NCBI RefSeq assembly: GCF_000582535.1
Contig: NZ_CP006932.1
Coordinates: 570,001-602,000 of the forward strand
DNA from: Candidatus Saccharimonadota bacterium
GTDB taxonomy: Bacteria; Bacillota_I; Bacilli_A; Mycoplasmatales; Hepatoplasmataceae
Reading direction: 5' to 3'
DNA: 32,000 nt
Shown here: positions 1,422 to 29,010 of the stretch, in pieces
How the letters are laid out: the number at the start of each line of letters is the position of its first letter
Numbering within the stretch: the stretch's first letter is position 1
Translations under genes and position numbers: made by a program
The notes under the pieces: generated by a model
Told to the model about the DNA's origin: nothing
Databases searched by the model: none
Seen by the model: the letters and a program-made list of their open reading frames with translations, nothing else

Positions 1422-1563
1422 ATAATTAAATTAGTAAAATTTTATAATGACAAAAAATAGAAAAATCAAAAATTTTCAAGAAAATAGAACAAAAATAGAA
1501 AAAATATAAATATATAAATTTATTATGAAAAGCAAAATACATACTAATTACTTCTATACTATA

Positions 1564-2075
1564 ATTTGAAGAAAATATTAAAATTACAAATAAAGTAAAA
1601 TCATTAATAAAAGATCAAGATATATCATTAGAAGAATAACTTGGAATGATTGAGGAGAAAGAAAATAATAGAAGAAGAAGTTGATCATTTTGCAAAAGTA
1701 AAAGATGCTATTAATATTTATTAATATTATAAATATTGATATGTTAGTTATTCTTGTGGTAATTATTAACGGTTTTTATGTAAAACAACCAAAAATAAAT
1801 ATCTTTTTAATTAAAGAAATGTATGATAAAACAAAAAACCAATAGTATTATATAGGAGAAAAAGAGTTCCTTTAAATCAAATTAATAAAACTTTAAAAAT
1901 AAGAAGAAGAAAAGCCAATTTTGATAGTGAATTTAAAAAAAATTGCGGAATTTTAGAATATATGTATAAAAATCCTGATGCTTTTGATCTAAGAAAAATC
2001 TTTCAAGAAGGAATAAATTAAACAAAAGAAGTTGCAAAATTAAAAATAAAACTTTACAAGCAGAAATAAGAATTA
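1564..2075 (+). pseudogene. decayed duplicate of the 3' half of fba (matches about 678-1200 of the intact gene)
   Basis: Hand alignment: the first ~64 nt are identical to 684-747 of fba, then progressive substitutions, small indels and in-frame TAA/TAG stops; colinear to the fba C-terminus (..YMYKNPDAFDLRKIFQEGIN..). Confidence 0.85.
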
Positions 2076-2331: not shown

Positions 2332-4248
2332 TTAATCATCATTATCTGGATTAGAATAATTAAAATTAAAAATCATATCAATTTTATTATTATAATAATT
2401 TCAAAAATGAACTCCTTTTTTTAATAATTTTAAAATTTCTTGTTTTTCATATTCAAAAACATTTTGATTAAAAATTTTTATATCTTCTGTTTTAGAAATT
2501 TTTAGATATATAAAATTTTTTTTTGAATTTAGAATTTCAAATAAGTTAGAAAAATAATTAAAATAATATATTCCTTTTTTATGAAATTCAAAAGCAATTG
2601 ATTTAATTGCATAGAAATTAGGCATAATTAATTTTAAAGAAGTATAATTAAATCCTTTTAAAGCTTCATTTTCTAATTCTTTTCCAGAATTAGAAATAGA
2701 ATTTGATTCATTTTTTATAGATTTATGATTTAAAAAAGTATCAATTTCATTTAGCGCAGAACTAGCAGCAAGTCCTGCTCATGCCCCGGCCCAAATTCCA
2801 TCTGTAAAAAAAGTTAATAAAGCACCCATTCCTAATCCAATTGTTGGAACTAAATAATCACCTTTACCATTTAAAGTAGAATTTTGTTTATATTTTAAAT
2901 ATTGATCTGTATTTTTTCATAATTGAAAATCTCTATTAATTTCAAGTCAATATCTTTTATCTTCAATTGAAGATAATAATTTTAAATTAATAGTTCAAGA
3001 AAAAGGACTAAAACTATAAAAATAATTTGCAATAATATTATCTTTTTTTAATTTTGGTAAATCTTTTTGAGAAAAAGATAATCCACTACCAAAATTTTCA
3101 TTTTGACCAGATATTTCAAATTGCTTAAAAGGATAAAAATTTAATATTTCTTCATCATTGTAATCTCAATTATCTCCAATATTTTTATTATTTTCAGAAT
3201 AATTAATTATAGAATCTGAATCCATAATTTTTAATTGTCCTATAATTTGTTTTTTATCCATATTATCATCATCATTTTTAAAGTTTTTTAATACTATTCC
3301 AAGAGCTTTACCACTATTTACATCTTCTACGAAACCTACATCTTCATTATTGAAAACCAATCCGCCATAAATATCAGATCATTCTCCAATATTTCCTAAA
3401 GGATAATTATCGACAACCGTAATATTTAATATTTCATTATCTGGTAAATTTCTAGCTCACTCATAAGATATTTTTCCAGATATTTCTGCAATTAAATTAC
3501 CTAATAAATCAAATATTTTCATTTTACTACCAATACTTGTAATAGGACTAAAAATTACATTATAAACCTTATCAATTTGTTGAATAGTATCATTTTCATT
3601 TCTTTTGCTTTTTTTGAAATGTAAAATATCTCCTGATTCTAAATTTTCAATATATTCTTTATTAATAAATATTAATAATCATTTTTGAATACCAAAACCG
3701 TCAGAAATATTTTGGCTTTGAGTAGAATTTAAAATATCATTGAAAAAATATTTTTCAATATCAAAATTATCAGATGGTTGATCATTTTGTAAAATTGAAT
3801 CATATAATAATTCATTATCAGAATTAAATTGTTTTTTAAAATTTATATGACATCTTTCAACTGAAAAATTTGTAAAAATATCAATTAATTTTGATAAATT
3901 ATAAGACTGTAATCAATTAATTTCTAATTCTAATTCTAATTCATTATCACTTATATAATTAATTTTAATTATATTTCAATAAGTTAAATTTTCTTGCAAT
4001 AAATTTTTTTTATTGAAAAAAGGATAATTTTTAACCTGAATTAAATCAATAATTTCAGAATTATTAAAAAAATAATCAAAATTAATTTCAGAATTATTAA
4101 TAATTAATTTAAAACTATTCCATTTCAAATCACTAATTAAAGTATCTGTAATTTGAAATGAATTTAAAGATTTTAGATAATTAGATATCCTCATTCTAAT
4201 TACCCTATTTTTTTGAATTTTTGTATTTTGAAATAATAAAATTTCCAT
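2332..4248 (-). CDS. hypothetical 638-aa protein with a glycine-zipper-like hydrophobic hairpin
   Basis: ORF-track pieces 3976..4248, 3166..3360 and 2401..2625 share one frame; I translated most of the gaps by hand (3601-3978 and 2623-3168) and found only TGA, no TAA/TAG; TAA stop at 2332-2334. Residues encoded at 2752-2850 read VPTIGLGMGALLTFFTDGIWAGAWAGLAASSAL, a local GC-rich patch. No enzymatic motif recognised. Confidence 0.7.
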
Positions 4249-4285
4249 CTAAATCTCCTAATTATTTTTAATTTAAAAAATAATA

Positions 4286-4305
4286 TTTAAATTATATAAT
4301 TTAAA
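4286..4305. promoter_or_regulatory. 20-bp perfect palindrome TTTAAATTATATAATTTAAA with back-to-back TATAAT boxes in the divergent intergenic region
   Basis: The sequence equals its own reverse complement; TATAAT at 4295-4300 (+) and its mirror at 4291-4296 (-); sits between the divergent starts at 4248 and 4369. Confidence 0.35.
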
Positions 4306-4368
4306 AAACAAACAATAAATTTATAAAAATAAGAATTAAAAAATAATTAAGAGAAGAAAATAAAAGAA

Positions 4369-6099
4369 ATGGAAAAAATAAAAGATTTTATTATACCTAA
4401 GGGTTATTCTATAGATTTAATTGTAAAAGAAGATGATCACGAATTAATTAATGCAGGAAAAATATTTATAAATGAATTAGAAAAAGAATATGAGAAATAT
4501 AAAGAAAATTTAAATAGAGAATATAAAAATATAGAAAAATATTTAAACAATAATTCAGTTTATTTTTCTAATGAAAAAATAGATAAAAAATCTCCCTTAA
4601 CAATTATCGATGCTCCTTGAGGAAGTGGTAAAACTTTTTTTATTGAATCATTAGCAAAACATATTATTGATAATAATATAAAAACAAATATTTTTAAAAA
4701 TATAATAATTTTAGATTCTTGAAAATATTCAAATTCTAAAAATATACCAGATGAAATAATATCTGAATTATTTTATATTCTTGCTATAAAATATGGAACT
4801 AAAGAAAATAATTTAAAAGAAAAACTTAAAAAATTTGGAAGACTTTTTTTCAACGCAACTGTTCTTTCATGAGCAAATAATTTTGGAAAATTGGATCTTG
4901 AAAAAATTAAACCAAAAGAAGAAAAGGAAATAAAAAATCTTTTATTAGATATATCAAACATTATTGAACCCACACTAATTGTATTTGATAACATTGAAAG
5001 AATTGGAAAATATTCTTGAGAAATACTTAAAGCAATTTTTAAAATATCTCAAATTGATAATTTTTGTTTTATTTTACCAATGAATACTAAAAAATTAAAA
5101 GAAAATGAATATGATGTTGATAACGAATATCCTATAGAAAAATATATCGATATTCCTTTTTTTAAATTTAAACAAGATTATTTATCATTTTTAAAAAAAT
5201 TTGGATTTAAAAACGAAGAAGCAAATTCAATTAATAAAATTTTAAATAAGGAAATAGAAGGACAAAAATTATCAATTAGAGAAGTAGAACAAAGATTTAA
5301 TAAAGAAAATATTAAAGAAATAGAAAATAAGTATGAAAAAATAAAAAAAATAGTAAATAAAATCTGAGGTTCAGTCGAGGAAGCAAAAAAATATTTATAT
5401 AATGATTTAGAAGAATTTTATTTAAAAATCATTGAATTAAAAAACAACTATGACGAATTCAAAAAAATAATTATAAAAAAATATTCAATTAAATATAGTA
5501 ATAATTATGAAAATGAAACAAATAATCTTAATTTATTAGTTGAAAAATTTTATAAATATGAATGAAGTTTTGATTATAAAGATTGATTTAATGATTTTAA
5601 TGAAGTATTAAAAGAATTAAAAGATTATGAAAAAAGAGATAAAAATAAAATTGAAAAATATGAAAAGGATATAAAAAATAAGAAAATTCAAATAGAAAAG
5701 ATCAAGGAAAACATATCTAATTTAATAAAATTAAACAAAGAAGAAGAACAAAAAGATTTAGAATTAATAAATTATGTAGAAATTGAAAATTTTAAAAATG
5801 CAATTAATAAGCATAATAAGGACATTTTCAATCTTAATAAAGAAATAAGAAATGATTCAATAAATATTGAAAATATCAAGAAAAAACTAATAAATTTAAA
5901 TTTTTATGATAATTTTAAAAATTTAAGTGATTTGTCCAAAAAATATAAAACTAATGAAAATAATTTATTTAAAAATGTTAACAAATATTTAATAAATATT
6001 TTTTTAGAGTTATTAGAAATAAAGGAAAATTTAAATTTATATGAAAAGAATATATTTATAAATAAAATATCAGAAAAAATTTTAAATATTAATTATTAG
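4369..6099 (+). CDS. KAP-family P-loop NTPase (576 aa) with a coiled-coil-like C-terminal half
   Basis: Walker A IIDAPWGSGKTFF (W is TGA 4618-4620) and Walker-B-like TLIVFDNIERIG match the KAP pattern GxWGxGK[ST] ... hhhhDDhDR; pieces 4369..4620 and 5080..5367 are in frame; hand translation is continuous to TAG 6097-6099. Confidence 0.8.
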
Positions 6100-6269
6100 A
6101 AATATTAAATATACTTCATTTATAATAAACAATTGCATTTTATCATTTACAAGATAATATTGAATTATTAAAAAAGATAAAATAAATGAAAAAAATAATA
6201 TTGAAGAAAAAATGATTATTTTAAAAAATAATATTAAATTTATTAATGATAATGTAAAAGGAAAATAAA

Positions 6270-7604
6270 ATGACTTTTTTAACACAAGAAAATCTTATAG
6301 TTATAAATGAAGAAATAAGATATAAATATGATTTGGAAATACCTCCTGTTTTCTTATATGGAAATTCAGATATAAAGGCTTTTATTAATTTAGGAGAATT
6401 ATTATCAAATGAATTTGATTTTGATAATAAAGAATTAAAAAAATTAAATGCAAAAAAATATTTTAAAATTTCAATTGAAGAATTAATAAATTCACCAGAA
6501 AATAAATCAGAACCAAAAGATTGAGGATTTGGATATTCAAAAGAATCTAAAAATGGAAAAGCATCGGGATCAGAAAGATCAAAAAAAATAAAACAATTTT
6601 TCCTTGAAAAACTAAATGCAAAAGAAAATTTAGAAGATAATTCTTTAATAAAATTAGAAAAAATTATTAATCCAGAAAAATTATCTGGTATTGGAGAAGA
6701 TTTAATAACAGATTTTGTTCTAATAACAAAGGAAAAAGAAATAAAAGAGTTTACAAAAATAATTTTTAATAAAATAGAAAAAGAAAAGGGATTAAAAGAA
6801 AATTTAATAATAAAATCACTACAAGAAAATTATAAAATAAATAACAATACAAATATTGATGCATTCCCTTTTTTAATTCCCATAAATATTGTTGATGAAT
6901 TTATTGGTAGTTTAGGAAAAGAATTTGAAAAAAGTATATTTAAAAAATTTATAAATAAAAATGATATTCATTTTGATTATAAAGAAGATGAAAAAGAAGC
7001 ATTTAAAACAAATTTTAGGTCATCTTTTTCAGAAAAAAGAAATGAATGATTAAATTTTAAAAAAATTAAGGCATCTGAGGAATTTTTAAAATTAAAAAAT
7101 GAAATTAAACAAATAAATTTTGACAAAAATTTTAACTTTTTATTAGAAAAGAAAAATTGAGAAATTAATTTATTTTTAAGCAATCGTGAAGTTTTAAGAA
7201 AAAATAATTTAAATAGAAATGTTTTAATTTTAAAAAAAGAAAATGGAGAAATTATAATAAAAAAATACTTTATAAGAAATGAAGAAATATTTCTTTTCAA
7301 TAGTAATTTAAATATTGAAAATTTAGCAATTAAAGAATTTAAAAGAGAAATTTTTAAAAGTAGTAAATATTCAAATTTTCCAATAAATATCGTAATTACA
7401 AGACAAAAATTTAATGAAAAAAATGAATTAAAAAATGTAAGCATTATGTATTTAAATACAAGACAAATTATTAGAAAAAACAATATTAAAAACGAAGATA
7501 GTTATATAAAAAAAACTATTAAAAATAAAGATAATTATAGAAAAAAATTTAGTAAATCTATAATAAATGGGAGTTAAATTTTAATAAAAGCTATAATAAA
7601 TAAT
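6270..7604 (+). CDS. hypothetical 444-aa protein (Lys/Asn/Glu-rich, no motif recognised)
   Basis: AAAGGA RBS before ATG 6270; ORF-track piece 6270..6524 continues through 3 TGA codons with no TAA/TAG (translated by hand) to TAA 7602-7604, 1 nt before the next ATG. Confidence 0.7.
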
Positions 7605-7605
7605 A

Positions 7606-8748
7606 ATGCAAACAAAAACAAATAACTATAAAAATGAATTACATTCAATTTGCACTTATTTAGCAATGTTTCCTCACAATATTCCGAATGAATATATAAA
7701 AAAATATACTAACAAAGGAGATACTGTATATGATCCCTTCTCTGGAAGAGGAACAACAATATTAGAATCATTACTTTTAGAAAGAAAAGCAATAGGAAAT
7801 GATTTAGCTCCTTTAGCTTATGTTTTAACAAAATCAAAAACAATTAATTATAGTTTAGATAAAATAATAAAAAGAGTAAATAAATTAAAAAATGAATATA
7901 TAAAATGAAGTAATATTAATAAAATAGATTTAGAACAAAAAGATTTTAAGGATGTTAAATATTTTTATAGTAAGTATAATTTAAATCAATTATTTTTCTT
8001 AAGAGAAAAAATAGGTAAAAATTATAGAAAATTAGATCAAATTGATAATTTTATTTTAGCAATTGCTTTAGGTTTAATGCACGGACAAATTAGAAAGGAT
8101 AATTCAACAATTTATTTTTCAATATCTATGCCCAATGGATATTCAATGTCTCCTAATTATGTAAAAAATTATAAAAATAAATATAATTTAATTCTTCCTA
8201 AAACTGATATTTTTGAGCAAATAATTAATAGAATAATAGTAAAACTTAAAAATAATAAAATAAATAATCTTAAATTTAAATCTAAAATATTTAATGAAGA
8301 TGCTTTAAAATCAAGTGAATTTATAAAAAACAAAAAACCAAAATTAATATTTACATCTCCTCCATATTTAAATGCAGTTAATTATGTAGAACAAAATTGA
8401 TTAAGATATTGATTATTAGGATTTAATAAAGAAGAAAATAAAAAAATAAAACTTGATGATAAACATAATAAAGAAAATTACAAAAATTTTTTAAAAAAAT
8501 TTTTAATTGAAATGAAAAAAATATTGGATCCTAACGGAACAATGATAATTGTAATTGGAGATTTAGAAAATAAAAAAATTCAAATTGATAAAATAATGAG
8601 AGAAATAATTTTGGATATAAAAAATTTAAAATTATTGGAAAGAATGAAAAAGGAAAAAAATAATTTAAAATTAAGTAGACAAATGGGAAAAGCAAAAGTA
8701 GGCAAATTAATAAATTATGATTGATATTTTATAATAGAAAGAATATAA
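7606..8748 (+). CDS. DNA methyltransferase, amino-MTase type (N6-adenine or N4-cytosine), alpha motif order
   Basis: Motif I VYDPFSGRGTT at about aa 40-50 and motif IV TSPPY at about aa 250; pieces 7606..7908, 8077..8400 and 8512..8724 are in one frame; TAA at 8746-8748. Confidence 0.85.
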
Positions 8749-8752
8749 AATT

Positions 8753-10873
8753 ATGGAACAAAAATATGTTTTTGAACAAGAAGAAAAATTAAATTTAAAG
8801 AATCTTAAATTATTACCAATTAATCCAAGATTTACATATTTCGGGAATGAAAAAGAAAATTTTTCAATAGAAAATATCTATAATGAAACCTTTAAGAAAG
8901 AAAACGAAATAGAAGTGCTAATGAAAATATTTTCTAGTGAAGAAAATTTAGAAGATTCTTATGAGTTATTCGAAAGCCTTATTGATAATGGATATGATAA
9001 ATATATTGATAGAATATGAGCAATAAAAACAAAATATAACAATTATTATGTTTTGGAAGGAAATAGAAGAACTTTATTTTTAAAAATTATTTTAAATATT
9101 AATAATTTAAGAAAAATATTTTTTAATCAAAAAGAAAAAATTTCCGAAAATATTTGCAAAAATATAGCAAATTTAGAAGAAAAAAATAAATGTATTAATA
9201 AAAATAAGAAATTTATTAAAAAAATAAATGAAAAAATAAATGAAAATGATCTAAAAAATAATGATTTATCAATTTATACATTCTTTAATAAATGCAAAGA
9301 AACAGATCTAAAAAATGACTGTTTTAATTTTGAAAAAACTAAAGATAAAATTTTAAAAAGATTGAGAAATAAACACATGATTCCCAATATAAAGGGTAAA
9401 AAAGATTGAAATAGATTATTAGTTTTAAAGAGCTATTTAGATATTTTCAAAAATTACGAAAATAAATATAATAATACAGAAAATATTATTAGAAAAATAT
9501 CAAAAGATTATCAAATTTCACTAAAAAAAATTGATAGAGATTTAAGATCCGCAAATTGAATTAATAAATTATTAAATTCTCTAAATAAGGAAAAAAGAAA
9601 TCAAATTATAGAAAATAAAAATTATAAAATATCTGCAATTGAAATTTCACCCTCTACTTTAAAAATATTAGGTAAAAATGGAAATAAAAAGACACTACAA
9701 AAGCAAATAAAATTAGAATATATTAAATATAATCCAATAATAAAAAATGGTAAATGAGAAGAGGTTGCTAATTTTTTATTTGAAAATTTTGAAAATGGAA
9801 ATTTTACAACAAGGGGATGAAAAAATGAAAAAGAACATTATAAATTATCAAATTTTTTTGGAGAAGAAGAATATAATTTAAAATTTTCGCATTTAAAATG
9901 AAAAGAAAAAAATAGAAAAAATGAATATATAGATGAAATTTTAGAAGCAGAAAATTCAATTTATAAAATCAAAAAAGAAAATGAAAAAAAAATAATTCCA
10001 GAAAAAAATAAATATATTTATAAATTTAAGAAAATAAATGGATTGGATAGATATAATAATGAATTAAAAAATATTTATTGTGCTTTGCAAAATTTTAAGA
10101 AAATAATAAATTGAGTAACTAAATACGAATTAAAATGATTGATAATACCTGACAGCAATATAATATTCTCAAATAATAAAAATGAAAAAATATTAAAACA
10201 TATAATTGGTGTATTTGGTGGATTAAGAATAATTTTTGATTATTTAAATACCTTTTTAACTAAAATTAGTGGATTAAAAAATAAAAACATTGAAGAAGAT
10301 CTTTTAAAAAAATTTAATTTCAAAAATTCAAAAATAAATTTTCTTAAAAATATTAAAAACTCAGAAGATAATTTTGAAAAATGATTAGATAATATTTTAA
10401 ATGATATAGATAATTATGATAAAAATCAAAAAATAAATTATTTAAATAAAAAAGAATTTCATAATGAAATTTTATCTTGATTAGTAGAAGAAGAAAAGAT
10501 AAAATCAAAAAATAAATTAAATATTAAAAAAGATCTATTAATTGAAGATAAAGAATTAAAAAATTATTATAATGAATTAGAAAAAATATGAATTGATATA
10601 AACAAAATAAATTATGAAGATAATGAGATGGAAGATAATGATTGAAATAAAAAACCTTTAAGAAATTATGTTTTGCATAATTTCTTACCAATTTTAAAAA
10701 GAATAGAAAATATTGATAATAGAAAATATTTTGAAAAAATAATAAATTTGGTAAGTAAATTTTTGGATAAATTAAGAATTATTATTGATTTTATAGAAGA
10801 AAATATTGAAAAAGAAATGGTTAATAAAAAAGAATATATATCAAAAATAAATCAAGAAAGTTTAATTTTATAG
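8753..10873 (+). CDS. 706-aa protein with an N-terminal ParB/Srx-like domain and a long helical Lys/Asn-rich C-terminal region
   Basis: N-terminus LKNLKLLPINPRF ... LFESLIDNGYDKYIDRIWAIKTKYNNYYVLEGNRRTLFLKII fits the ParB N-terminal pattern (..NPR.., ..SI...G.., h.[DE]G.[RH]R); the four ORF-track pieces (8753, 9053, 10139, 10673) share one frame and the gaps, translated by hand, contain only TGA; starts 4 nt after the MTase stop. Confidence 0.7.
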
Positions 10874-10928: not shown

Positions 10929-11060
10929 TAATTAAAGAGATATCTGATAAAACAAAAAAATTACTAGTATTAAATAGAGAAACAGAAGCTAATTTAGATT
11001 AACTTATTAAAGGTATTCAATCATAAATAATAAAATCTAATTTTGATAATGAACTTATAA
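10929..11060 (+). pseudogene. short decayed internal fragment of fba (matches about 921-1050 of the intact gene)
   Basis: Hand alignment: ATAATTAAAGAGATATCTGATAAAACAAAAAAATTACTAGTATTA...CTAATTTTGATAATGAACTT versus fba TTAATTAAAGAGATATATGATAAAACAAAAAAACCACTAGTATTA...CTAATTTTGATAGCGAACTT; lies exactly between the two cassettes and overlaps the endonuclease stop codon. Confidence 0.7.
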
Positions 11061-12530
11061 AATTTTTTTATATCCGTACTTATTTTCAATAATTTCTTCA
11101 AGAAAATCTGAAATATCTGAACCTAAATTTTTTAGAGCAATTTTATTTATATCTGAAAAAGAAGCTAATTTATCTTTATTGGATAAACATTCTTTAGAAC
11201 AATATTGTGCTAAAATATTAGATGTTAAAGTGACAATTTTATATTTTTCAATATCTAAAAAATTAGAATTTGAAAATTTAGGAGAAATAACTAAACAATA
11301 TTTAGAATTATTTTTTTCAATATGTCTTTGTATTCGTGTTGATTGCAAATTATTATAAGATTTTCTGCTTTTTGCTTCAATATTAATTTTATTAACTTGA
11401 TCATTAAAATCTCTAAAAATAAAAATTAAATCAGTATCGCCTGATCCACTTATAATTTCAGTAGATATTTCTTCTCTAAATAATTTAAAAATTGGTTTTA
11501 AAGAATTTTCAAATTCTTTACCATCTAAAGAACCATATTTTGATTTTTCAGTCATATTATTTATTAAAGAAATTATTTCAATTTTTTCATTATATTCCGG
11601 AAATACTATTGCTAAATATTTTAATAATTCATTTTCATATAATTTTAATTTAAAATCTTCTAATCCAAAAGTATTTTTAGGGGAAATAGGTTCATTAAAT
11701 AAAGAATACTTACTTAATAATTCATGAGATATTTCTTTAAGATTTTTATTTAATTCAATATATCCTGAATAACTATCAATTTTATTATTTCTATAAGTAT
11801 TTGTTGATCCATGTTTAAACTTAAAAAAATTACCACTATTATGATATTTATCACCTTTTAAATTAATTACTCCAAATTGAGAAAATATTTTTAAAAAAAA
11901 ATATTTTGATTCATGCAAACAGTTAGCAAATAAATGATTGTAATCTTTTATTTGCTTAAATTTTTCTAATTTTTTTTCAAATGGTAATTTTCTAAAATCT
12001 AATATATCATTAACCAATTTTTCATAAGTTATCTTATTTATTTTTTTAATAAAAGGTAAAAATCATATAAACTCATCAATAAAAATTTTATATTCCAAAG
12101 AATCATTTAACATTAATTTAATAATTAATCGTCCAACAAATATTGAAAAATGTTCATTAACTTTACTATATGGTGCTGGAAATTGAATAGAAAATAAATT
12201 AACTAACATATTTTTTCTTATAAAATTTTCATCTTCATTTTTCTTGTTTAAAATATTTCAAGTTGTCTGAGTAGGAATAAAAAAATTGCTATTATTTTTT
12301 TTATAACCAAACATATAAAAAAACATTTGACTCAATCTAATTCCAATAGTATTCTCTGAACCATTTTCACTCCGACCTTTATAAATATTTTTTTCTTTTA
12401 AATCATATTTTAAATATTTTTTATTCAAAACGTTATTATTTTCTTTAATTGATTTTAAAAAAAGTACTATTTGCTTTTCTGAACTTATATTCTTTTGAAA
12501 AACTCATCTATCTTTAAATTTTCTTTCCAT
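11055..12530 (-). CDS. putative type II restriction endonuclease (491 aa) with a PD-(D/E)xK-like core
   Basis: ORF-track piece 11055..12017 extends in frame through 3 TGA codons to ATG 12528-12530 (hand translation: MERKFKDRWVFQKNISSEKQ...); candidate catalytic signature SGSGDTDLIFIF-x12-INIEAKSRK; immediately downstream of two C5-MTases on the same strand. Confidence 0.6.
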
Positions 12531-12550
12531 TTTATAAAAATAAATTAAAT

Positions 12551-13606
12551 TTATTTTTTAATTCCTTTAATAATTTCTTTTAAAAATTTAGGAGGAATTG
12601 CTTCTCCTATAATATTTCTAATAAAAGTATCTGTACATCAATTTGGTAAATCTAAATCTGGAGGTAGTGAACTAATTATAAATAATTCTCTTAATGTTAA
12701 AACACGAGCATCAGAATATGTACCATCTGAAAGTAATCGACCAGGATGTACATTATTATGACCTCCTATATTACCCGAATTCATTGTTCTTGCTGGAGAA
12801 GGTTTATTTCAATGCATTCTTTTATAAGTATTATGAAATCCTTTAATTGCTTCCCCGTTAATTTTTTTGGGATAATAAAAATCGTTTTTTAAAGCAGACT
12901 TACCAGTTGAAGTATGCTTCATAGCTAATATATCTCTATCATTATGTTTTTTTGCATAATGTCACTTAATATTTGATGATTCACCAGATTCTAGACTTGG
13001 CAAAAATCCTATTGCTTCTTTAAGATTTATTTCTTTTGATTCACTATGATTAAATCAATTAAGATTTTTTTTTCACATTTTTATAAATGCTCTTGATCTG
13101 TTTTGTGAAACGCCATAATTACAAGAATTTAAAATAAATTTTTTTATATTATATATATCTCCAAATTCCTGAATTAAAATGCTAAATATTGTATAAAAAT
13201 TATTATTATAAGGAAACAAAAAATTTAAAAATTTTGGAACATTTTCTATAATTATATAGTCAAATTTATTATTTTTTATAATTTCAATTACATAAAAAAT
13301 TAAATAATTTCTTTCATCATTTTCATAATCTTTTTTGCCCAAAGTACTCATTCCTTGACAAGGAGGAGTAGCAATTAAAAATTTGCAATTATTATTTTTT
13401 ATCTCAAAATTTATTTGATCTAATATTTCTTTTTTAGTAATATCGCCAATAATCATTTTTGTTTTTGGATAAAAAAAAGTATACAATTTAGCTCTTGAGA
13501 AAATTAATTCATTCGCTATTTTAATATCTATATTAACATCTTTTAAATACATCTCTCCTATACCAGCACCAGAAAACAAAGAAATACCATTTATCTTATT
13601 TGTCAT
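12551..13606 (-). CDS. DNA (cytosine-5)-methyltransferase, copy 1 (351 aa)
   Basis: Motif [40 protein letters not shown], then after TGA read-through [24 protein letters not shown] and motif X GEAIPP; TAA at 12551-12553. Confidence 0.9.
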
Positions 13607-14678
13607 TATATTTTATCCCTTTTAAAATTTTATTTATTAATAATGGAGGAACAGATTCTCCTATCATATTTCGTATCTGAATATCAGAAACAAATTTTGG
13701 GACATTTAAATTGGGATCTAAACTACTTAAAATAAATAGTTCTCTTAAAGTTAAAACACGTGCATCAGAGTATGTGCCATCTGAAAGTAATCGGCCAGGA
13801 TGAACATTACTTTGAGATGAAATACAATCATTTCTCATAGTAATAGTTGGAGAAGGTTTATTCCAATTAATTCTTTTATATGTGGCCATATAACCTTTTA
13901 ATTTTTCTCCTGTTTTTTTATTTTTAGGATAATAAAATTTGTTATCAAAAGCAGATTTTCCAGTAGGAGTATGTTTCATAATTTCAATATGAGATGCTAT
14001 ATGATTCCGAGCATTGTGATTTTTAATGTTTGATTTTTGTCCGGATTCCAAACTAGGAAGATTAGATATAGAATCTCATACTGTTATTATTTTTTCTGAT
14101 TTAGGATCAATTCATCGAAATTTTTTTTTTCACATTCTTATTATTGCTCTTTCTCTATGCTGAGGAACACCAAAATTTTTTGCATTAAATATATCAAATT
14201 CAATATTGTATTCCTTTTTATATTTATTAATAATTATTTCTTTAATTCCTAATAATTCATTATTTATAATGAATTTTATCTTAAAAAATCTAGAAACATT
14301 TTCTATCAAAACAAAGGAAGGTTTTAATTTATCAATTATTTCAAAAGTATCAAATATTAAATAATTTCTCTTATCTGCGATCATCTGATCATTTGACTTA
14401 TTTTTCCCTATTAAACTTATTCCTTGACAAGGAGGAGTGGCAAATATAAAATCAATTTTCTTTTTAATTGATTCATTAATAATTTTATTTTTAATATTTT
14501 CATCTGTTATATCCCCACATATTGTTTTGGTATTTGGATGTCAATATTCATGCACTTTATTTCTTATTGGAATTAATTCATTCGACAAAATAATTTTTAC
14601 TTTTGTATTTTTAAAGCCAAACTCAGCTATTCCAGCACCAGAAAACAATGATAAGGCATTAATTTTAACTAAATTCAT
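13596..14678 (-). CDS. DNA (cytosine-5)-methyltransferase, copy 2 (360 aa)
   Basis: ATG 14676-14678; motif [65 protein letters not shown], motif X GESVPP; pieces 14130..14384 and 13596..14051 are in frame; 11-nt overlap with the start of copy 1. Confidence 0.9.
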
Positions 14679-14799: not shown

Positions 14800-15320
14800 A
14801 GATATATTTCAACTTATATACAATTAATATATTAATATTTACAAAAAAGAGATATATTATATGATCTTTTCTTCGGAAAAGAAATAACATTTTTGGAATA
14901 ATATTATTAAAAATAGAAGTTTATGGAAATTATTTATCTTCATCGATTCATTTATTAATTAAATCAAAAAAAATATTAATAATTTTATTTTAGCTATTTC
15001 ATTAGAATTAATTAATGGAAAAGTAAGAAAAATGAATTATCACTTTATTTTTCTGTTCCTATAGCTAATGGATATTAAACATCTCCGAATTATGTTAAAA
15101 AATTAACTTAACTTTTAATTTTTCGATTTATTTAAAGTTTGTTAATTATATAAAACAAAACTGAATAAGATATTTATTATTAAAATTCAACAATAAAGAA
15201 AATAAAAATATAAAACCGAATAATAAACATAGAACAGAAAATTATAAAATATTTCTAAAAAATTTTTGATTAAAAAGAAAAAAATGAATATTTTATACTT
15301 AAAGAAAATAGAGGAATATT
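14800..15320 (+). pseudogene. heavily decayed, internally deleted paralogue of the 7606-8748 DNA methyltransferase
   Basis: Colinear nucleotide matches to the motif I region (TATGATCTTTTCTTCGGAAAAGAAATAACA vs TATGATCCCTTCTCTGGAAGAGGAACAACA), the middle (AATTTTATTTTAGC..; ..AATGGATATT.AA..TCTCC.AATTATGT.AAAAAATTA) and the 3' part (..AAAAATTTTT.ATT.AAA.GAAAAAAAT.); many stops and frameshifts; boundaries approximate. Confidence 0.65.
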
Positions 15321-15583
15321 ATCTTTAAAATTACTTTAAAAATAATAATTTTAAATAAAATTTATGATATTTTAAATTAATTTAATAAGTAATTTTAATA
15401 TTAAATCTAAAATAAATTCATTATAAAAACAATTTTGTTAAAATTACATTTTTCTTTAATCTATAGATATCTTAAATTATTTATATTTAAATTTACAATA
15501 TTTAATTATAATTTATAAATTAATAATTAAATTTTAATTTTCTAAAATATTAATAATATTTTATTTTATTAGATATTAAATTA

Positions 15584-16195
15584 TTATAGTAAATCTAAAG
15601 TTTCTTTAATAGATTCAAAATAAATTGATAAAGTTTCTTTTTGATTTAAATAATTATTTTCAAAATTACTACATTTTTTATTTAAAAATACTTCTCTTAA
15701 CTTATTTCAATCATTACCCTTAATTTCTTTTATTTTATTATTAGAATTTTTAACTAATTCTCATCTTATATTATTAGATTCTTTCCCACGCAAAATTTCT
15801 TTCATGTTTTCTTTATTTGTTCTTATTAAAGCAATATCAAAATGTTTTCTATTATTTTGATCTCTAGAAGAAATTGTAATAACAGATGTTGATAATTTAA
15901 CATTATATTTATATCCTAGATATTTCTTAAATAATTTTTGTACAAATAATTTAAGTTCTGATGTATCAATTTTATTAAATATTGGTGAATCTAAAAGTAA
16001 TTGATAATCAACATCATAAATTCCATTTTTTCTTTGAACAACAAGATTTCTTCTTGCTGATCCTACAATTGCATGATTAAAAGATTTTCCATATTTTGCT
16101 TTAATTTCTTCTTTAATTTTAGGAATTGTATCTTCTAATTCAATTTTATATTCTTTAATTTCTTTTTTACTAACATATCTACATTTCTCATTCAT
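15584..16195 (-). CDS. Pol-beta-superfamily nucleotidyltransferase (203 aa; MNT/SMODS-like)
   Basis: Signature IVGSARRNLVVQRKNGIYDVDYQLLL (hG[GS]-x(n)-DhDh) plus a downstream HFDIALIR (third acidic residue); ORF-track piece 15761..16195 continues through 2 TGA codons to TAA 15584-15586 (translated codon by codon). Confidence 0.6.
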
Positions 16196-16246
16196 AATTA
16201 ATTAATTTAATTCCCCTTTATTTTTAATAATTATAATAATATTATA

Positions 16247-16840
16247 ATGAATCAAATTATTGAAAGAAAAATAAAATTTTTAAAACAAGAATTCTCAAAA
16301 AATAATTATGTATTATTAAAAGATGATATAAAAGATTTAAAAATTCAATTAGAAAGAAAACCTGTACAATTATACAATTTAGCAATAAAATTTTTATTAA
16401 AAAATAATGAGAAAATAAATTATGAAAATATTTCTAAAATCATAATTATTGATATAAGAATACGAGACAATCTTAAAAAAATAATAACTTCCTTAGAAGA
16501 ATATATAAGGGTAAAATATATAGATTTTAAAAAAATAGAATTTAATAATAATTTAATTAAAAAAATTTATACAGAAAATTTAGCAAAAATGATCCAAGAA
16601 TTAAAGGTAGATGAATACAACATAATAAGAGAAATAAGAAATAAAGTAAATCATATTGTTTACCCAATAATATTTGAAGAATTTAAAAATATTTTTAATA
16701 ATTTAATTAAAATAAGAAATTTAGATTTTATTAATAAAAATACTTTTGATAAATATCTAAGATCAATTTTAAATACTAATTACAATATAAATATTAATTT
16801 TATAAATAATTCTTTTAAAAAATTAAAAAATTATATTTAA
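16247..16840 (+). CDS. HEPN-domain protein (197 aa; AbiD/AbiF (Abi_2)-like)
   Basis: R-x4-H motif in IIREIRNKVNHIVYP within a predicted all-helical protein; divergent from the nucleotidyltransferase with a 51-nt gap. Confidence 0.55.
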   Translation: MNQIIERKIKFLKQEFSKNNYVLLKDDIKDLKIQLERKPVQLYNLAIKFLLKNNEKINYENISKIIIIDIRIRDNLKKIITSLEEYIRVKYIDFKKIEFNNNLIKKIYTENLAKMIQELKVDEYNIIREIRNKVNHIVYPIIFEEFKNIFNNLIKIRNLDFINKNTFDKYLRSILNTNYNININFINNSFKKLKNYI

Positions 16841-16886
16841 TCATAAATCTAAAGCAATTTCTATATAATCTAAAAAAGGGATTATT

Positions 16887-18569
16887 ATGGAAAATTTCAT
16901 TGTAAATAAAGGTTACTCAATAAAATTAATAGTAAAAGAAGATGACGAAAAATTAATTGATACAAGTAATGAATTTATTTTAGAATTAGAAAAAGAATAT
17001 TTTAAATATAAAAATAAATTAAAAGAAGAACAAGATAAATTTGAAAAATATAATAACAATAAACATGTTTATTTTTCGCAAGAAAAATTATTAAAAAAAT
17101 CTCCTATTGCAATCATAAATGCTCCTTGAGGTAGTGGAAAAACATATTTTATTGAACAATTTGCAAAAAACTTTATCGATCAAAGAATAGATATTAAAAA
17201 CTTTAAAAATATCATCATTCTTGATATTTTTAAATTTTCTAATTCTAAAAATATTCCTGATGAAATAATGGCTGAATTATTTTTTATTCTTACAAAAATA
17301 TATGATCAAGATAATAAAAATGATTTACTTAATAAATTACATAAATTTGCAATAAAATTTTTTAATGCAACAGTAATTGCTTGAATAAATTATTTTGGTA
17401 AATTTAATTTTGAAAAATTTAAAATTAAAGATCTAAATGAAACAGAAATTATTGTAAATGAAATATCTAAAAGTATTGAACCTACTTTAATAATATTTGA
17501 TAATATTGAAAGAATTGGAAAATATTCTTGAGAGATTTTAAAAGCAATCTTTAAAATCTCACAAATTGATAATTTTTGTTTTATATTACCGATGAATATA
17601 AATAGATTAAATGGAAATGAAAATAAAAAAAATGATGAATATCCAATTGAAAAATATATTGATCTACCAATATTTGAATTTAAACAAGATTATCTTTCTT
17701 TTTTAAAAAATAATGGAGTAGATCAAAAAGAAGCAGTAATTATAAATAATATTTTAAATACAGAAATAGATGGACAAAAATTATCAATAAGAGAAGTAGA
17801 ACAAAGATTCAATAAAAATGATATTTTTAAGGAAAATAATAAATATTTAAAATTAGATAAAATTGTAAAAAATGTATGAGGTTCAGTAACCGAAGCCAAA
17901 AAATACTTAAATGATGAAATTAAAAAATATATTGAAAATCTAAATCAATTAGAAGCAATTTTTAATCAAATAAAATTAAATATTAAAGAAAGAAAATATC
18001 AAAATATTAATTTCGATCAAGATACTAAAAATTATATTAATCAAATTAATAATAATTCTTGAAATCTTAAACATAATTATGAAGAATGAATAATTATGTT
18101 TGATAAAATTTTAAAAGATATTAAAGAATATTTAAATAAATTTGATCTTAAAAAAATTGAATTAATTACAGTAAAAGAAAAATTAAATTCTAATTATTCA
18201 ATTATAAATAATAATTTAAGAATCTTAAATTTAAAATTAGAAAAAGAAATGAGTCTTGAAGATAAAGATAATTTAAAAATTAATCAATTACAAATTGAAA
18301 TTGAAAAGAAAATTAATAATATTGAAATAATCAAAAATCAAATAAATTTAATTAATCAAAAAATATATAATATTGAAGAAGGATACAAAGATCTAGATTA
18401 TAAGAATTTAGAAAAAAGTATTCAAGATTATAAAGAAAAAATAAAAAGTATAAATCAGGATACTGATTTATACTTAATAAATAAATATTATATGTGGGAC
18501 AGAAAATTTGATTATTCACGAGATAATTCAAATTATATTGATTACTTTATTGATTGTTTATTTAGTTAA
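16887..18569 (+). CDS. KAP-family P-loop NTPase, second paralogue (560 aa)
   Basis: Walker A IINAPWGSGKTYF (W is TGA 17127-17129), TLIIFDNIERIG; colinear with 4369-6099 over the NTPase domain; pieces 16887, 17592 and 18096 are in one frame; TAA at 18567-18569. Confidence 0.8.
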
Positions 18570-19444: not shown

Positions 19445-19457
19445 TTTCTGTTTTTTT
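19425..19457. terminator. bidirectional rho-independent terminator between convergent genes
   Basis: A run, ACAGAAA-TTAA-TTTCTGT hairpin, T run; lies between the + gene stop (19442-19444) and the ychF stop (19456-19458). Confidence 0.6.
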
Positions 19458-20556
19458 ATATATTAAATCTAAAATGAACTATATCTCCATCTTTTAATTT
19501 ATAATCTTTTCCTTCTAATTTTATGAGACCTTTTTCTTTTAAAATCTCCTCTGATTTATATTTAATAATTTGATCATAAGAAAATATTTCTGCTTTTATA
19601 AATCCTTTTTTAAAATCAGTATGAATTATTCCTGCCCCTTCTGGTGCTTTGATTCCTAATTTAAATTTTCAAAGATGAATTTCTTCTGGTCCACAAGTAA
19701 AAAATGTTCCTAGATTTAGCAATTTAAATGCTTCTTTTAAAATTATATTAATTCCTTTTTCATTTAATTTATATTCATTAAGGAATTGTTTTTTTTCTTC
19801 GATTGAATTTATTTTTGTAATTTCATCTTCAATCTTAGCTGAAATTACAATTGAATTTAAGTTATTTTTATTAATATAATCATTATATTTTTGAAAAAGA
19901 GAATCTTCTTGATAATTAATTAATTTATCTTCATTTATATTAGCCAGATAAATTACTTTTTTATTAGTAAGAAAATTAAATTGCTTAATAAAATCATTTT
20001 CTTCTATGTTAAACTTAAGATCTTTAATTTCTTGTTCTTTTTCTAATTCTTCTTTTATTTTTTTCATTAAAAGAAGTTTATCAAGATCCTTTCGTTCTCC
20101 TTCAATTTTTTTCTTATTTTTAGTAATTCATTTTTCTACTTGTTCTAAATCACTAAGAATAAGTTCTAATTTGATAGTATTTATATCCCTTATTGGATCT
20201 ATCTTACTATCTACATGAATAGTATTATCATCATGAAATAATCTTACTAAATGTAAAATAAGATCAACTTCTCTTATATTTGCAAGAAATTTATTTCCCA
20301 ATCCTTCTCCTTTACTTGCATTTTTTACAAGACCAGCAATATCATAAAAATAAACTTGTGTAAAAATTATTTTTTTGGAATCATAAATATCTTTTAATTT
20401 ATAAGCTCTTTCATCTTCTACATTTAAAATTGCAACATTAGGTTCTATTGTTGCAAATGGATAATTTGCTGCTTCTACATTTGAATTTGTAATTGCATTA
20501 AAAAAAGTTGATTTTCCAACATTAGGTAATCCTACTATTCCAATTTTGATAGCCAT
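19456..20556 (-). CDS. ychF: redox-regulated ATPase YchF (Obg-family GTPase-like, 366 aa)
   Basis: [21 protein letters not shown] (G1), DIAGLV (G3), C-terminal TGS-like ...[33 protein letters not shown]...; pieces 20128..20556 and 19669..20067 are in frame and joined by TGA=Trp; TAA at 19456-19458. Confidence 0.92.
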
Positions 20557-24827: not shown

Positions 24828-24849
24828 TTATTTTAATTATAATTAAAAC

Positions 24850-26727: not shown

Positions 26728-26741
26728 TTTATTCTTCTTTC

Positions 26742-28991: not shown

Positions 28992-29010
28992 CTATTCTTT
29001 CCTTTTTAAA

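What the first reader, a model, noticed from the sequence alone, without database searches (positions are those of the whole stretch)
4369..10873. KAP NTPase + unknown 444-aa protein + alpha-order amino-MTase + ParB/Srx-domain 706-aa protein: a tight cassette with no recognisable nuclease, candidate undescribed methylation-linked defence system
Seen: four same-strand genes. The last three are packed for translational coupling (stop 7604 / ATG 7606; stop 8748 / ATG 8753). Motifs are APWGSGKT and FDNIERIG (KAP), DPFSGRGTT and TSPPY (MTase), and NPR...LEGNRR (ParB-like). I recognised no PD-ExK, HNH, PLD or helicase motif in any of the four. Established: KAP/STAND-type NTPases recur in predicted conflict systems. 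ParB-like domains are frequently fused to N6A/N4C MTases on phages and plasmids. MTase-plus-NTPase systems without a classical restriction enzyme exist (BREX/Pgl/DISARM logic). Inference: this combination matches none of the named systems I know. It may mark self DNA by methylation while the KAP NTPase, the 444-aa protein and the ParB-like protein sense or act on unmodified DNA. The second, partly decayed copy of the module (14800-18569) argues for turnover typical of defence genes.
Basis: partly seen in the sequence, partly recalled or inferred. Interest (0 to 1): 0.8.

Follow-up and report, generated by a model that had tools for sequence, protein, structure and literature searches.

The report
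PD-λ-5-like methylase/ParB defence gene pair
The proposed four-gene system is really a conserved two-gene pair, a DNA methylase plus a ParB-like protein distantly related to the validated E. coli anti-phage system PD-λ-5, flanked by two unrelated neighbour genes in a defence island of the isopod symbiont Hepatoplasma.

Summary
The window is chromosome of Candidatus Hepatoplasma crinochetorum Av (genetic code 4). The four same-strand genes and all quoted motifs are real. ORF2 is 435 aa, not 444: its stop is at 7577, leaving a 28-nt gap before the methylase. The four genes are not a conserved unit. ORF2 is replaced by an unrelated R-M pair in a second Hepatoplasma strain and stands alone in a third. 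KAP relatives appear in no other locus.

The conserved unit is the methylase plus ORF4 (7606-10873). All 8 loci found through ORF4-family proteins have an adjacent, co-oriented amino-methylase, with gene order and methylase family varying. All 6 code-4 loci found through the methylase have an ORF4-family gene directly downstream.

ORF4's N-domain is homologous to PD-λ-5A ("ParB/HEPN, methyltransferase", Vassallo 2022). A confident model of a family member gives ParB/KorB/Noc folds. The all-alpha C-terminal half has no fold match. It keeps an invariant Arg and N-x3-H, which reads RNYVLH (HEPN-like) in ORF4.

Verdict: a divergent, Mollicutes-specific variant of a known but mechanistically unsolved defence type. 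It is not a new four-gene system. Interest is moderate to low.

The parts
7606..8748 (+). Amino-DNA methyltransferase (380 aa; motif I DPFSGRGTT, then TRD, then motif IV TSPPY). This is the modification half of the conserved pair.
   Evidence: Pfam PF01555 4.8e-21. PADLOC MTase_II 1.2e-38. Orthologs at 46-52% identity sit next to ORF4-family genes in L003, L004, L006, L008 and L011. It is 85% identical in Hepatoplasma Ps.
8753..10873 (+). ORF4 (X271_00546, 706 aa): ParB/Srx-like N-domain, helical middle region, all-alpha C-terminal domain. Candidate sensor/effector half of the pair.
   Evidence: Starts 4 nt after the MT stop. Family alignment A1 has invariant NPR, EGNR, GxxxWxR, TRxxK. PADLOC PD-Lambda-5_A 7.4e-5 for ORF4 and down to 2.7e-12 for relatives. 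hhalign of the N-domain against genuine PD-λ-5A gives 97.9%, E 4e-13. AF2 model of family member P0005 has pLDDT 81, and Foldseek returns ParB, KorB and Noc.
8783..9142 (+). ParB/Srx-like N-terminal domain of ORF4 (about aa 11-130), with NPRF (8822-8833) and LEGNRR (9053-9070).
10217..10678 (+). Conserved C-terminal elements of ORF4: the Arg of GGLRIIFDYL (10217-10246) and LRNYVLH (10658-10678). The latter is N-x3-H across the family and RNxxxH (HEPN-like) in ORF4.
   Evidence: Invariant R, N and H in C-terminal alignment A4. Motif list. In register with ACNMFVH of genuine PD-λ-5A, but this segment alone is not significant. No Pfam or PDB hit.
4369..6099 (+). KAP1, a KAP-family P-loop NTPase (576 aa). 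A neighbour gene, not part of the conserved module.
   Evidence: PF07693 3.3e-13. Present in Hepatoplasma Ps, but the KAP HMM hits no other ORF4- or MT-containing locus.
6270..7577 (+). ORF2 (X271_00544, 435 aa), function unknown. It occupies a variable slot and is not part of the conserved module.
   Evidence: No hit in Pfam, PADLOC, NCBIfam, PHROGs, PDB or plasmid records. Absent from L001. Stands alone in L002. The source database lists PF28123.1, which is not in the local Pfam copy.
14984..15290 (+). Frameshifted pseudogene remnant of a second copy of the same MTase.
   Evidence: tblastn of MT residues 247-305 gives 56% identity, E 5e-13, plus weaker pieces. Three-frame translation shows the fragments.
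16887..18569 (+). KAP2, an intact paralog of KAP1 (560 aa).
   Evidence: 55% identical to KAP1 and 66% to Hepatoplasma Ps KAP2. PF07693 5.8e-12.
10929..11062 (+). Fragment of the aldolase gene 3' region just downstream of ORF4. Together with a second fragment at 1552-2064 it brackets the segment that carries KAP1 through ORF4.
   Evidence: blastn: 81% identity to 923-1056 and 86% identity of 1552-2064 to 666-1187.

Best explanation
The region is a chromosomal defence island of Ca. Hepatoplasma crinochetorum Av, lying between the aldolase gene and ychF. They are a two-gene, restriction-modification-like module of the PD-λ-5 type.

Proposed mechanism:
1. The alpha-order amino-MTase (SPPY motif, so m6A or m4C; target unknown) marks host DNA.
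2. ORF4 uses its ParB/Srx-fold N-domain and the adjacent helical DNA-binding region to engage DNA in a nucleotide-dependent way. The invariant NPR and EGNRR motifs correspond to the ParB phosphate-binding box.
3. On unmodified (foreign) DNA, ORF4 activates its all-alpha C-terminal domain as the effector. That domain has an invariant Arg and N-x3-H, which reads RNxxxH (HEPN-like) in ORF4. The effector is probably a nuclease, giving either direct restriction or abortive infection.

KAP1 and ORF2 are independent neighbours in the island, possibly stand-alone defence genes.

Shown: the gene pair is conserved. The N-domain is homologous to PD-λ-5A. The fold is ParB-like. The context is a defence island. 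KAP and ORF2 do not co-occur with the pair.

Inferred: methylation protects self DNA. ORF4 senses unmodified DNA. The C-terminal domain is the effector.
For: Pairing:
- All 8 loci ascertained through ORF4-family proteins have an adjacent, co-oriented amino-MTase, separated by anything from an 11-nt overlap to a 26-nt gap. These are L001, L003, L004/5, L006/7, L008/9, L010, L011 and L012.
- Gene order is inverted in L006 and L012.
- The MTase family is swapped to D12/PF02086 in L010 and L012.

Reciprocal test:
- Among the top 80 genomic relatives of the MTase, all 6 code-4 (Mollicutes) loci have an ORF4-family gene directly downstream, at E 1e-36 to 1e-154.
- Five loci from other phyla have a PD-λ-5A-like ParB gene two genes upstream of the MTase.

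Link to PD-λ-5:
- 12 of 15 family members hit PADLOC PD-Lambda-5_A models.
- The family profile retrieves P0029 at 7.4e-6. P0029 and its neighbour score PD-Lambda-5_A 3e-50 and PD-Lambda-5_B 7.5e-114.
- hhalign of the N-domain gives 97.9%. The full-length alignment is colinear over 508 columns with motifs in register.
- PD-λ-5 is annotated 'ParB/HEPN, methyltransferase', gives broad anti-phage protection, and could only be cloned in a Δmrr host (PMC9519451).

Fold:
- The AF2 model has pLDDT 81.3. Top Foldseek hits are ParB-CTPγS, KorB, Noc and sulfiredoxin at probabilities 0.93-0.99, plus viral ParB/Spo0J proteins.

Context:
- Neighbours at related loci include ThsB_TIR, AbiEii, GmrSD, a ResIII helicase, RVT, AAA_15/21 and a Type II REase.
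- In the window, neighbours include a Type II REase with two m5C MTases.
Against: - Homology to PD-λ-5A is statistically supported only for the N-terminal ~120-150 residues. The middle and C-terminal segments alone give E 0.23 and 0.08, barely better than mismatched controls.
- The window MTase is PF01555, not the D12 family of PD-λ-5B.
- No nuclease or HEPN profile matches the C-terminal half. The Arg of the RNxxxH motif is not conserved across the family.
- The best structural matches are DNA-clamp and regulator ParB proteins, not nucleases.
- The structure model is of relative P0005 (about 20% identical to ORF4 in alignment A3; 28% over the BLAST-aligned N-terminal region), not of ORF4. The single-sequence model of ORF4 failed.
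- One distant relative, in a Mycoplasma prophage record, has no adjacent MTase.
- The mechanism of PD-λ-5 itself is unknown.
- No functional data exist for Hepatoplasma.
Confidence: 0.7

Rival explanations
1. One reading: KAP NTPase, ORF2, MTase and the ParB-like protein act together as one four-gene methylation-linked defence system.
For: All four are co-oriented and closely spaced. KAP1, MT and ORF4 are syntenic in a second Hepatoplasma strain. The KAP paralogs give weak hits to mad8 of the methylation-associated MADS system, at 0.014 and 1.4e-5. A degraded MTase copy lies about 1.6 kb upstream of KAP2.
Against: ORF2 is replaced by an unrelated MTase plus a Tsp45I-like REase in strain Ps. 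In a third strain ORF2 occurs without KAP or MTase. The KAP and ORF2 HMMs hit no other locus among 93 loci carrying ORF4-family or MTase relatives. Two-gene-only loci exist, such as L006, which is flanked by housekeeping genes. There is a 170-nt gap after KAP1. MADS detection requires MAD6-8 together.
Confidence: 0.06
2. ORF2 is the cognate restriction endonuclease of the MTase (a classical Type II R-M), and ORF4 is an accessory or unrelated protein.
For: ORF2 ends 28 nt upstream of the MTase on the same strand. REases are notoriously unrecognisable by sequence. The same slot holds an R-M pair in strain Ps. In L010 a Type II REase (2.7e-49) precedes the D12 MTase that precedes the ORF4-like gene.
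Against: No ORF2 relative accompanies any of the MTase orthologs. ORF2 stands alone in L002, between aldolase fragments and with no MTase on that 1979-bp contig, which would be lethal for a Type II REase unless a cognate MTase is encoded elsewhere in that genome. No REase model hits it. The MTase's constant partner in Mollicutes is ORF4.
Confidence: 0.1
3. ORF4 is not a defence effector. It is a ParB-type DNA clamp or regulator that loads or controls an orphan MTase, a split version of the ParB-MTase fusions of phages and plasmids. On this view the pair is an epigenetic or anti-restriction module.
For: Top structural matches are ParB, KorB and Noc CTPase clamps, including the DNA-binding region. 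No nuclease domain is detectable. ParB-MTase fusions are common on mobile elements (own knowledge). A relative is encoded by a Mycoplasma prophage.
Against: The homologous PD-λ-5 pair gives experimentally broad phage protection (PMC9519451). Related loci consistently lie in defence islands. The ~450-residue conserved extension with an invariant R and N-x3-H is not explained by a clamp role. In other lineages the same MTase clade is paired with other large partner proteins, as expected of R-M-like modules.
Confidence: 0.14

Closest known systems
PD-λ-5 (Vassallo et al. 2022, Nat Microbiol; PADLOC PD-Lambda-5_A/B)
   Same: A two-gene, co-oriented, tightly coupled pair: a protein with an N-terminal ParB-like domain and an all-alpha C-terminus carrying a HEPN-like signature, plus an amino-DNA methyltransferase. 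The N-domains are homologous. The alignment is colinear with the C-terminal N-x3-H in register. Some members of ORF4's own family pair with a D12 MTase that hits PD-Lambda-5_B.
   Different: ORF4 is 706 aa against roughly 450-530 aa for PD-λ-5A. Only the N-domain is significantly similar. The MTase is a permuted PF01555 enzyme, not the Dam-type PF02086. Gene order is MT then A rather than A then MT. The host is a code-4 Mollicute rather than an E. coli prophage.
GmrSD / BrxU / SspE Type IV enzymes (DUF262 ParB-like NTPase + DUF1524 HNH nuclease)
   Same: A ParB/Srx-fold N-domain with a (D/E)Gxx R box, coupled to a C-terminal effector within a single large defence protein.
   Different: ORF4 and its relatives do not hit PF03235 or PF07510. 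There is no HNH motif. GmrSD enzymes attack modified DNA and have no cognate MTase, whereas ORF4 is always paired with one.
ParB / Noc / KorB CTP-dependent DNA clamps
   Same: These are the best structural matches, covering the N-domain and the adjacent helical DNA-binding region. The arginine-rich GNRR box is conserved.
   Different: There is no ParA partner or parS context. ORF4 has a ~450-residue extra region. It is MTase-linked and lies in a defence island. Pfam ParBc does not match by sequence.
Classical Type II restriction-modification systems
   Same: The MTase is much more conserved (46-52%) than its partner (27-30%). The partner is swapped between lineages. Gene order is variable and the genes are tightly coupled.
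   Different: The partner has none of the known REase folds by any profile. It carries an NTPase-type ParB domain.
MADS (methylation-associated defence system, mad1-8)
   Same: Defence linked to methylation. The KAP paralogs give weak hits to mad8.
   Different: MADS is an eight-gene operon whose detection needs MAD6, MAD7 and MAD8 together. Only a P-loop-level hit is present here, and KAP is not linked to the MT+ORF4 pair outside Hepatoplasma.

Membership tests
PD-λ-5 | Two adjacent, co-oriented genes (A + B) | tested here: met
   The MT stop is at 8748 and the ORF4 ATG at 8753. The same pairing is seen in all 8 loci ascertained through ORF4-family proteins and in 5 further code-4 loci ascertained through the MTase.
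PD-λ-5 | Component A has the PD-λ-5A-type N-terminal ParB-like domain | tested here: met
   PADLOC PD-Lambda-5_A gives 7.4e-5 for ORF4 aa 45-113. 12 of 15 family members hit, best 2.7e-12. hhalign of the N-domain against genuine PD-λ-5A gives 97.9%, E 4e-13.
PD-λ-5 | Component A matches over its full length, including the C-terminal HEPN-like region | tested here: inconclusive
   The alignment is colinear over 508 columns with N-x3-H in register. The middle and C-terminal segments alone give E 0.23 and 0.08, against 0.15-0.82 for controls.
PD-λ-5 | Component B is a D12-class (PF02086) methyltransferase matching PD-Lambda-5_B | tested here: not met
   The window MTase is PF01555. All 13 PADLOC hits below 1e-12 are MTase_II models. 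PD-λ-5B is MethyltransfD12. The feature is met at the loci of family members P0021 and P0029.
PD-λ-5 | Confers anti-phage protection | not testable with these tools
   Needs an experiment.
ParB/Srx fold superfamily | ParB/Srx-fold N-domain with the conserved phosphate-binding box | tested here: met
   Pfam ParBc gives no sequence hit. The AF2 model of family member P0005 (pLDDT 81) matches ParB 7bm8, KorB 8qa9, Noc 7nfu and Srx at probabilities 0.93-0.99. NPR and EGNR are invariant across the family.
HEPN | All-alpha domain with a catalytic Rx4-6H motif | tested here: inconclusive
   ORF4 has LRNYVLH (aa 636-642) in an all-helical region. The Arg is not conserved in most relatives, where only N-x3-H is kept. 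No HEPN profile or structure hit was found.
KAP P-loop NTPase (PF07693) | KAP-type P-loop domain with Walker A and B motifs | tested here: met
   KAP1 scores 3.3e-13 and KAP2 5.8e-12, both above the gathering score. GSGKT and the FDNIER region are present.
N6/N4 amino-DNA methyltransferase (PF01555), alpha order | Motif I (FxGxG-like) and motif IV ((D/S)PPY), with a TRD between them | tested here: met
   PF01555 scores 4.8e-21 in two stretches in permuted order. DPFSGRGTT is at aa 43-51 and TSPPY at aa 250-254.
MADS | MAD6, MAD7 and MAD8 encoded together | tested here: not met
   Only weak mad8 hits to the KAP P-loop region were found. No other mad model hit any neighbour.
GmrSD-type Type IV restriction enzymes | DUF262 (PF03235) N-domain plus DUF1524 (PF07510) HNH C-domain | tested here: not met
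   ORF4 and 10 relatives have no Pfam hit.
Classical Type II R-M (ORF2 or ORF4 as REase) | Partner protein matches a known REase family or fold | tested here: not met
   ORF2 has no PADLOC hit at all and ORF4 has no REase-model hit. Neither has any Pfam, NCBIfam or PHROGs hit.
BREX / DISARM / Pgl | PglZ, BrxC or DrmA-type core proteins | tested here: not met
   No such PADLOC model hit any gene of the island. There was only a generic PglX-MTase similarity, at 3e-12.

The most novel reading that the evidence does not exclude
The ORF4 family is not merely a divergent PD-λ-5A. It could be a distinct class of restriction partner in which a ParB-fold, nucleotide-gated DNA clamp reads methylation status and drives a previously unrecognised all-alpha effector domain (invariant R and N-x3-H). 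Relatives would then exist in three forms: fused (Mollicutes), compact (PD-λ-5), and split three-gene (Binatia, Acidobacteriota, Saccharimonadales and Chloroflexota loci). That would add a sixth catalytic or architectural solution to restriction-modification.
Probability: 0.3. Interest if true: 0.65.

Novelty: new variant of a known kind. Interest (0 to 1): 0.35.

Why it matters
PD-λ-5 is a validated, broad-spectrum anti-phage system whose mechanism is unsolved. This Mollicutes branch has an enlarged A protein, a swapped MTase family and an inverted gene order. Together with the split three-gene relatives in other phyla, it defines what is truly constant in these systems: the ParB-type N-domain with NPR/EGNRR, a conserved Arg, and a C-terminal N-x3-H. 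It also shows that the effector does not depend on one particular methylase, which gives concrete mutational targets. Separately, it documents that a 657-kb reduced symbiont genome keeps a multi-system defence island built by serial insertion at one site.

Tried and rejected
- The single-sequence AF2 model of ORF4 was useless (pLDDT 35.6).
- ORF2 could not be folded.
- The word-indexed homology searches saturate on this low-complexity family and found only Hepatoplasma relatives.
- The genome scan seeded with ORF4-family alignments failed.
- A borderline Ntox15 PDB hit to the C-terminus (E 9e-4) was rejected, because the conserved His aligns to a non-catalytic position and composition is biased.
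- C-terminal-only scans against Pfam and PDB were negative.
- The hypothesis that ORF4 is a fusion of the split ParB-like gene and the ~300-aa gene was rejected, because the ~300-aa family HMM does not hit ORF4-family proteins.
- The other MTase partner families are not ParB-like.
- Promoter and terminator scans are uninformative at 17% GC: 78 promoter-like sites found against 77.9 expected, and 0 terminators.
- PF28123 could not be identified in the literature.
- Protein comparison failed internally, so hhalign was run locally instead.
- tblastn of ORF2 against plasmid records found nothing.

Full report
**Source and gene calls**

The window has 14-26% GC outside a tRNA cluster. It gives intact long ORFs only under genetic code 4. 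ORF4 is identical to X271_00546 of Candidatus Hepatoplasma crinochetorum Av, whose genome is a single 657-kb contig.

Code-4 genes in and around the finding are:

| Gene | Coordinates | Strand | Size |
|---|---|---|---|
| aldolase | 352-1209 | + | 285 aa |
| unknown | 2332-4248 | - | 638 aa |
| KAP1 | 4369-6099 | + | 576 aa |
| ORF2 | 6270-7577 | + | 435 aa |
| MTase | 7606-8748 | + | 380 aa |
| ORF4 | 8753-10873 | + | 706 aa |
| Type II REase | 11055-12530 | - | 491 aa |
| two m5C MTases | 12551-14678 | - | 351 and 360 aa |
| nucleotidyltransferase-like | 15584-16195 | - | 203 aa |
| unknown | 16247-16840 | + | 197 aa |
| KAP2 | 16887-18569 | + | 560 aa |
| ychF | 19456-20556 | - | 366 aa |

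**Checking the observation**

All the quoted motifs are present at the expected positions. KAP1 matches Pfam KAP_NTPase at 3.3e-13, and the MTase matches PF01555 at 4.8e-21 in permuted (alpha) order. ORF2 and ORF4 have no hit in Pfam, NCBIfam or PHROGs. No nuclease or helicase model hits any of the four.

Two corrections are needed:
- ORF2 stops at TAA 7575-7577. It is 435 aa and lies 28 nt from the MTase ATG. Only the MT-ORF4 junction (4 nt) is a tight one.
- The "second decayed copy" is an intact KAP2, 55% identical to KAP1, plus a frameshifted MTase pseudogene at about 14984-15290. There is no trace of ORF2 or ORF4, and the order differs from the first set.

**Is the four-gene cassette a unit?**

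No.

In Hepatoplasma strain Ps (L001), the syntenic locus reads aldolase, a 131-aa gene, KAP1, then a 340-aa TNPPY MTase and a 289-aa Tsp45I-like REase, then the MTase (85% identical), ORF4 (65%), an AAA_15/21 ATPase on the opposite strand, KAP2 and ychF. ORF2 has no homolog there.

In a third Hepatoplasma-like assembly (L002), the ORF2 homolog (65% identical) lies directly after the aldolase 3' end and is followed by another aldolase fragment. There is no KAP gene and no MTase.

HMMs of KAP and of ORF2 were searched against all ORFs of 93 fetched loci (0.91 Mb). They hit only Hepatoplasma Ps and L002 respectively, whereas the ORF4-family HMM hits 23 loci.

**The real unit is MTase + ORF4**

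An exhaustive HMMER search of 1.8 billion representative proteins found only 21 ORF4 relatives. They are mostly about 600 aa and 27-30% identical over the first ~400 residues. None has a Pfam domain.

The family alignment shows invariant NPR, EGNR, GxxxWxR, E297 and TRxxK, and a C-terminal N-x3-H.

Gene neighbourhoods were retrieved for eight loci ascertained through the ORF4-family protein itself. Every one has an adjacent amino-MTase on the same strand, with spacing from an 11-nt overlap to a 26-nt gap:
- MT then ORF4-like in L001, L003, L004/5, L008/9, L010 and L011.
- ORF4-like then MT in L006/7 and L012.
- The MTase is PF01555 in six loci and the Dam-type PF02086 in two (L010, L012).

The PF01555 partners are 46-52% identical to the window MTase, while the ORF4 relatives are 27-30% identical. 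L006 is flanked by housekeeping genes, so two genes suffice.

Reciprocally, the MTase alignment found more than 590 relatives in species-representative genomes. Among the best 80 loci:
- All six code-4 (Mollicutes-type) loci carry an ORF4-family gene directly downstream, at E 1e-36 to 1e-154.
- Five loci from other phyla (Binatia, Acidobacteriota, Saccharimonadales, Dehalococcoidia, Fimbriimonadaceae) show a tight three-gene form: a ParB-like gene of ~380 aa, a conserved ~300-aa gene, then the MTase. Neither of the first two has a Pfam model.
- In other lineages the same MTase clade is paired with other large proteins. None is ParB-like. One of them is a HerA/TdpA-like ATPase.

A conserved methylase with lineage-specific partners and a flexible gene order is the pattern expected of restriction-modification-like modules.

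**What ORF4 is**

PADLOC's PD-Lambda-5_A models hit ORF4 (7.4e-5, aa 45-113) and 12 of 15 family members (best 2.7e-12). The matches always cover only the N-terminal ~100-150 residues.

The family profile retrieves P0029, a 530-aa protein from a code-11 organism. P0029 and its downstream D12 MTase score PD-Lambda-5_A 3e-50 and PD-Lambda-5_B 7.5e-114, so they form a genuine PD-λ-5 system.

The profile-profile alignment of the ORF4 family against this PD-λ-5A is colinear end to end: 508 columns, 95.9% probability, E 5e-9. The C-terminal motifs are in register, LRNYVLHNF against ACNMFVHNQY. When the proteins are split into three segments, only the N-domain is significant on its own (97.9%, 4e-13). 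The middle and C-terminal parts give E 0.23 and 0.08, little better than mismatched controls.

Vassallo et al. list PD-λ-5 as "ParB/HEPN, methyltransferase". In their HHpred table, 5A is ParBc at 96% with a weak DUF4145/HEPN signal, and 5B is MethyltransfD12. [quoted passage not shown]

An AF2 model of family member P0005, built with a 27-sequence alignment, is confident (pLDDT 81.3, pTM 0.65). Foldseek returns Caulobacter ParB-CTPγS, KorB, Noc and sulfiredoxin at probabilities 0.93-0.99, and viral ParB/Spo0J proteins. The alignments run 260-340 columns, which is past the N-domain and into the helical DNA-binding region.

The all-alpha C-terminal half has no structural or profile match. It keeps an invariant Arg and N-x3-H. 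In ORF4 the motif reads RNYVLH, the canonical HEPN RNxxxH, but the Arg is not conserved in most relatives.

**Mechanism**

The steps below are inferred unless a call is cited.
- The MTase marks host DNA. The SPPY motif is compatible with m4C or m6A.
- ORF4 engages DNA through its ParB-type nucleotide-binding N-domain and helical DNA-binding region.
- On unmodified DNA it fires the C-terminal domain, probably a nuclease. The result would be restriction or abortive infection, as proposed for PD-λ-5.

Three observations support a defence role:
- The PD-λ-5 phenotype itself.
- The defence-island neighbours of related loci: ThsB_TIR, AbiEii, GmrSD, a ResIII helicase, RVT and AAA_15/21.
- The window's own content: a Type II REase (PADLOC 4.2e-39) with two m5C MTases, and a nucleotidyltransferase/RNxxxH pair.

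**Rivals**

- The four-gene model is contradicted by the lack of co-occurrence.
- ORF2 as cognate REase remains possible only weakly. ORF2 never accompanies the MTase orthologs, and it occurs without a neighbouring MTase in L002.
- A non-defence clamp or regulator role for ORF4 fits the fold matches and the lack of a nuclease domain. It does not fit the PD-λ-5 phenotype, the genomic context, or the large conserved extension.

MADS, GmrSD and BREX memberships were tested and are not met.

**Island history**

Fragments of the aldolase gene's 3' region recur at 1552-2064 and at 10929-11062. They bracket the segment that carries the 638-aa gene, KAP1, ORF2, MT and ORF4. Together with the MTase pseudogene and the KAP paralogs, this points to serial insertion and recombination at a single hotspot.

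**Verdict**

This is a divergent, Mollicutes-specific variant of a known but mechanistically unsolved two-gene defence type, with two unrelated neighbours. Novelty: new variant of a known kind. Interest: 0.35.

Noticed in passing
window 1552-2064 and 10929-11062 (compared with 352-1209): Partial duplicates of the aldolase gene 3' region (86% and 81% nt identity) bracket the segment that holds the 638-aa gene, KAP1, ORF2, MT and ORF4. In L002 the ORF2 homolog is likewise flanked by aldolase fragments. These look like scars of serial insertion at one hotspot.
   Followed up: partly
window 11055-14678 (- strand): A separate R-M system: a 491-aa Type II REase (PADLOC REase_II 4.2e-39) followed by two paralogous m5C MTases (51% identical, overlapping by 11 nt). 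This two-methylase layout suggests an asymmetric (Type IIS-like) recognition site.
   Followed up: partly
window 15584-16195 (-) and 16247-16840 (+): A divergently transcribed pair. One is a 203-aa minimal nucleotidyltransferase-like protein (GS...DVD; PADLOC cyclase 8e-9). The other is a 197-aa protein with REIRNKVNH, an RNxxxH HEPN-like motif. Together they resemble an MNT/HEPN toxin-antitoxin or a small signalling module.
   Followed up: no
window 22641-29652 (- strand): Four large genes of unknown function. The 636-aa and 749-aa products share near-identical N-termini (KILIPKNNTNW...), and the 213-aa product resembles the C-terminus of the 749-aa one. This is a paralogous family next to a 14-tRNA cluster (29836-31078).
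   Followed up: no
window 6270-7577 (ORF2): The source database lists a precomputed Pfam family, PF28123.1, for ORF2. That family is absent from the local Pfam copy and from the searchable literature, so a newer Pfam release may name this protein.
   Followed up: partly
L065, L070, L075, L086, L089 (about 2830-6150 in each): A tight three-gene arrangement found in five phyla: a PD-λ-5A-like ParB protein (~380 aa), a conserved ~300-aa protein (DVVAWR...GQCASGxxW), then an MTase of the same clade as the window MTase. Neither of the first two proteins has a Pfam model.
   Followed up: partly
L027, L032, L034, L040, L051 (downstream of the MTase): In the Helicobacter/Campylobacterales loci and one Bacillota locus, the same MTase clade is followed by a ~645-aa HerA/TdpA-like ATPase (PDB 8wet, 2.8e-20 for the L051 representative). 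This is another non-canonical methylase-NTPase pairing.
   Followed up: no
L017 (JAITEE010000191.1, labelled Candidatus Methanovirga aequatorialis MAG): This contig has intact MTase and ORF4-family genes only under genetic code 4, and they are most similar to Mollicutes genes. It is probably a mis-binned Mollicutes contig in an archaeal MAG.
   Followed up: no
L013 1723-3627 (Mycoplasma phage MGyu-2021a, MW358880.1): A 634-aa prophage protein shares the NPRF/EGNRR N-domain and a C-terminal N-x3-H (NSMIH), but has no adjacent MTase in this partial record. It is a possible solo or phage-borne relative.
   Followed up: partly
L010 2544-6488: A three-gene row: a Type II REase (PADLOC 2.7e-49), a D12 MTase and an ORF4-family protein. 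The ParB-like protein may share a methylase with a conventional restriction enzyme.
   Followed up: no
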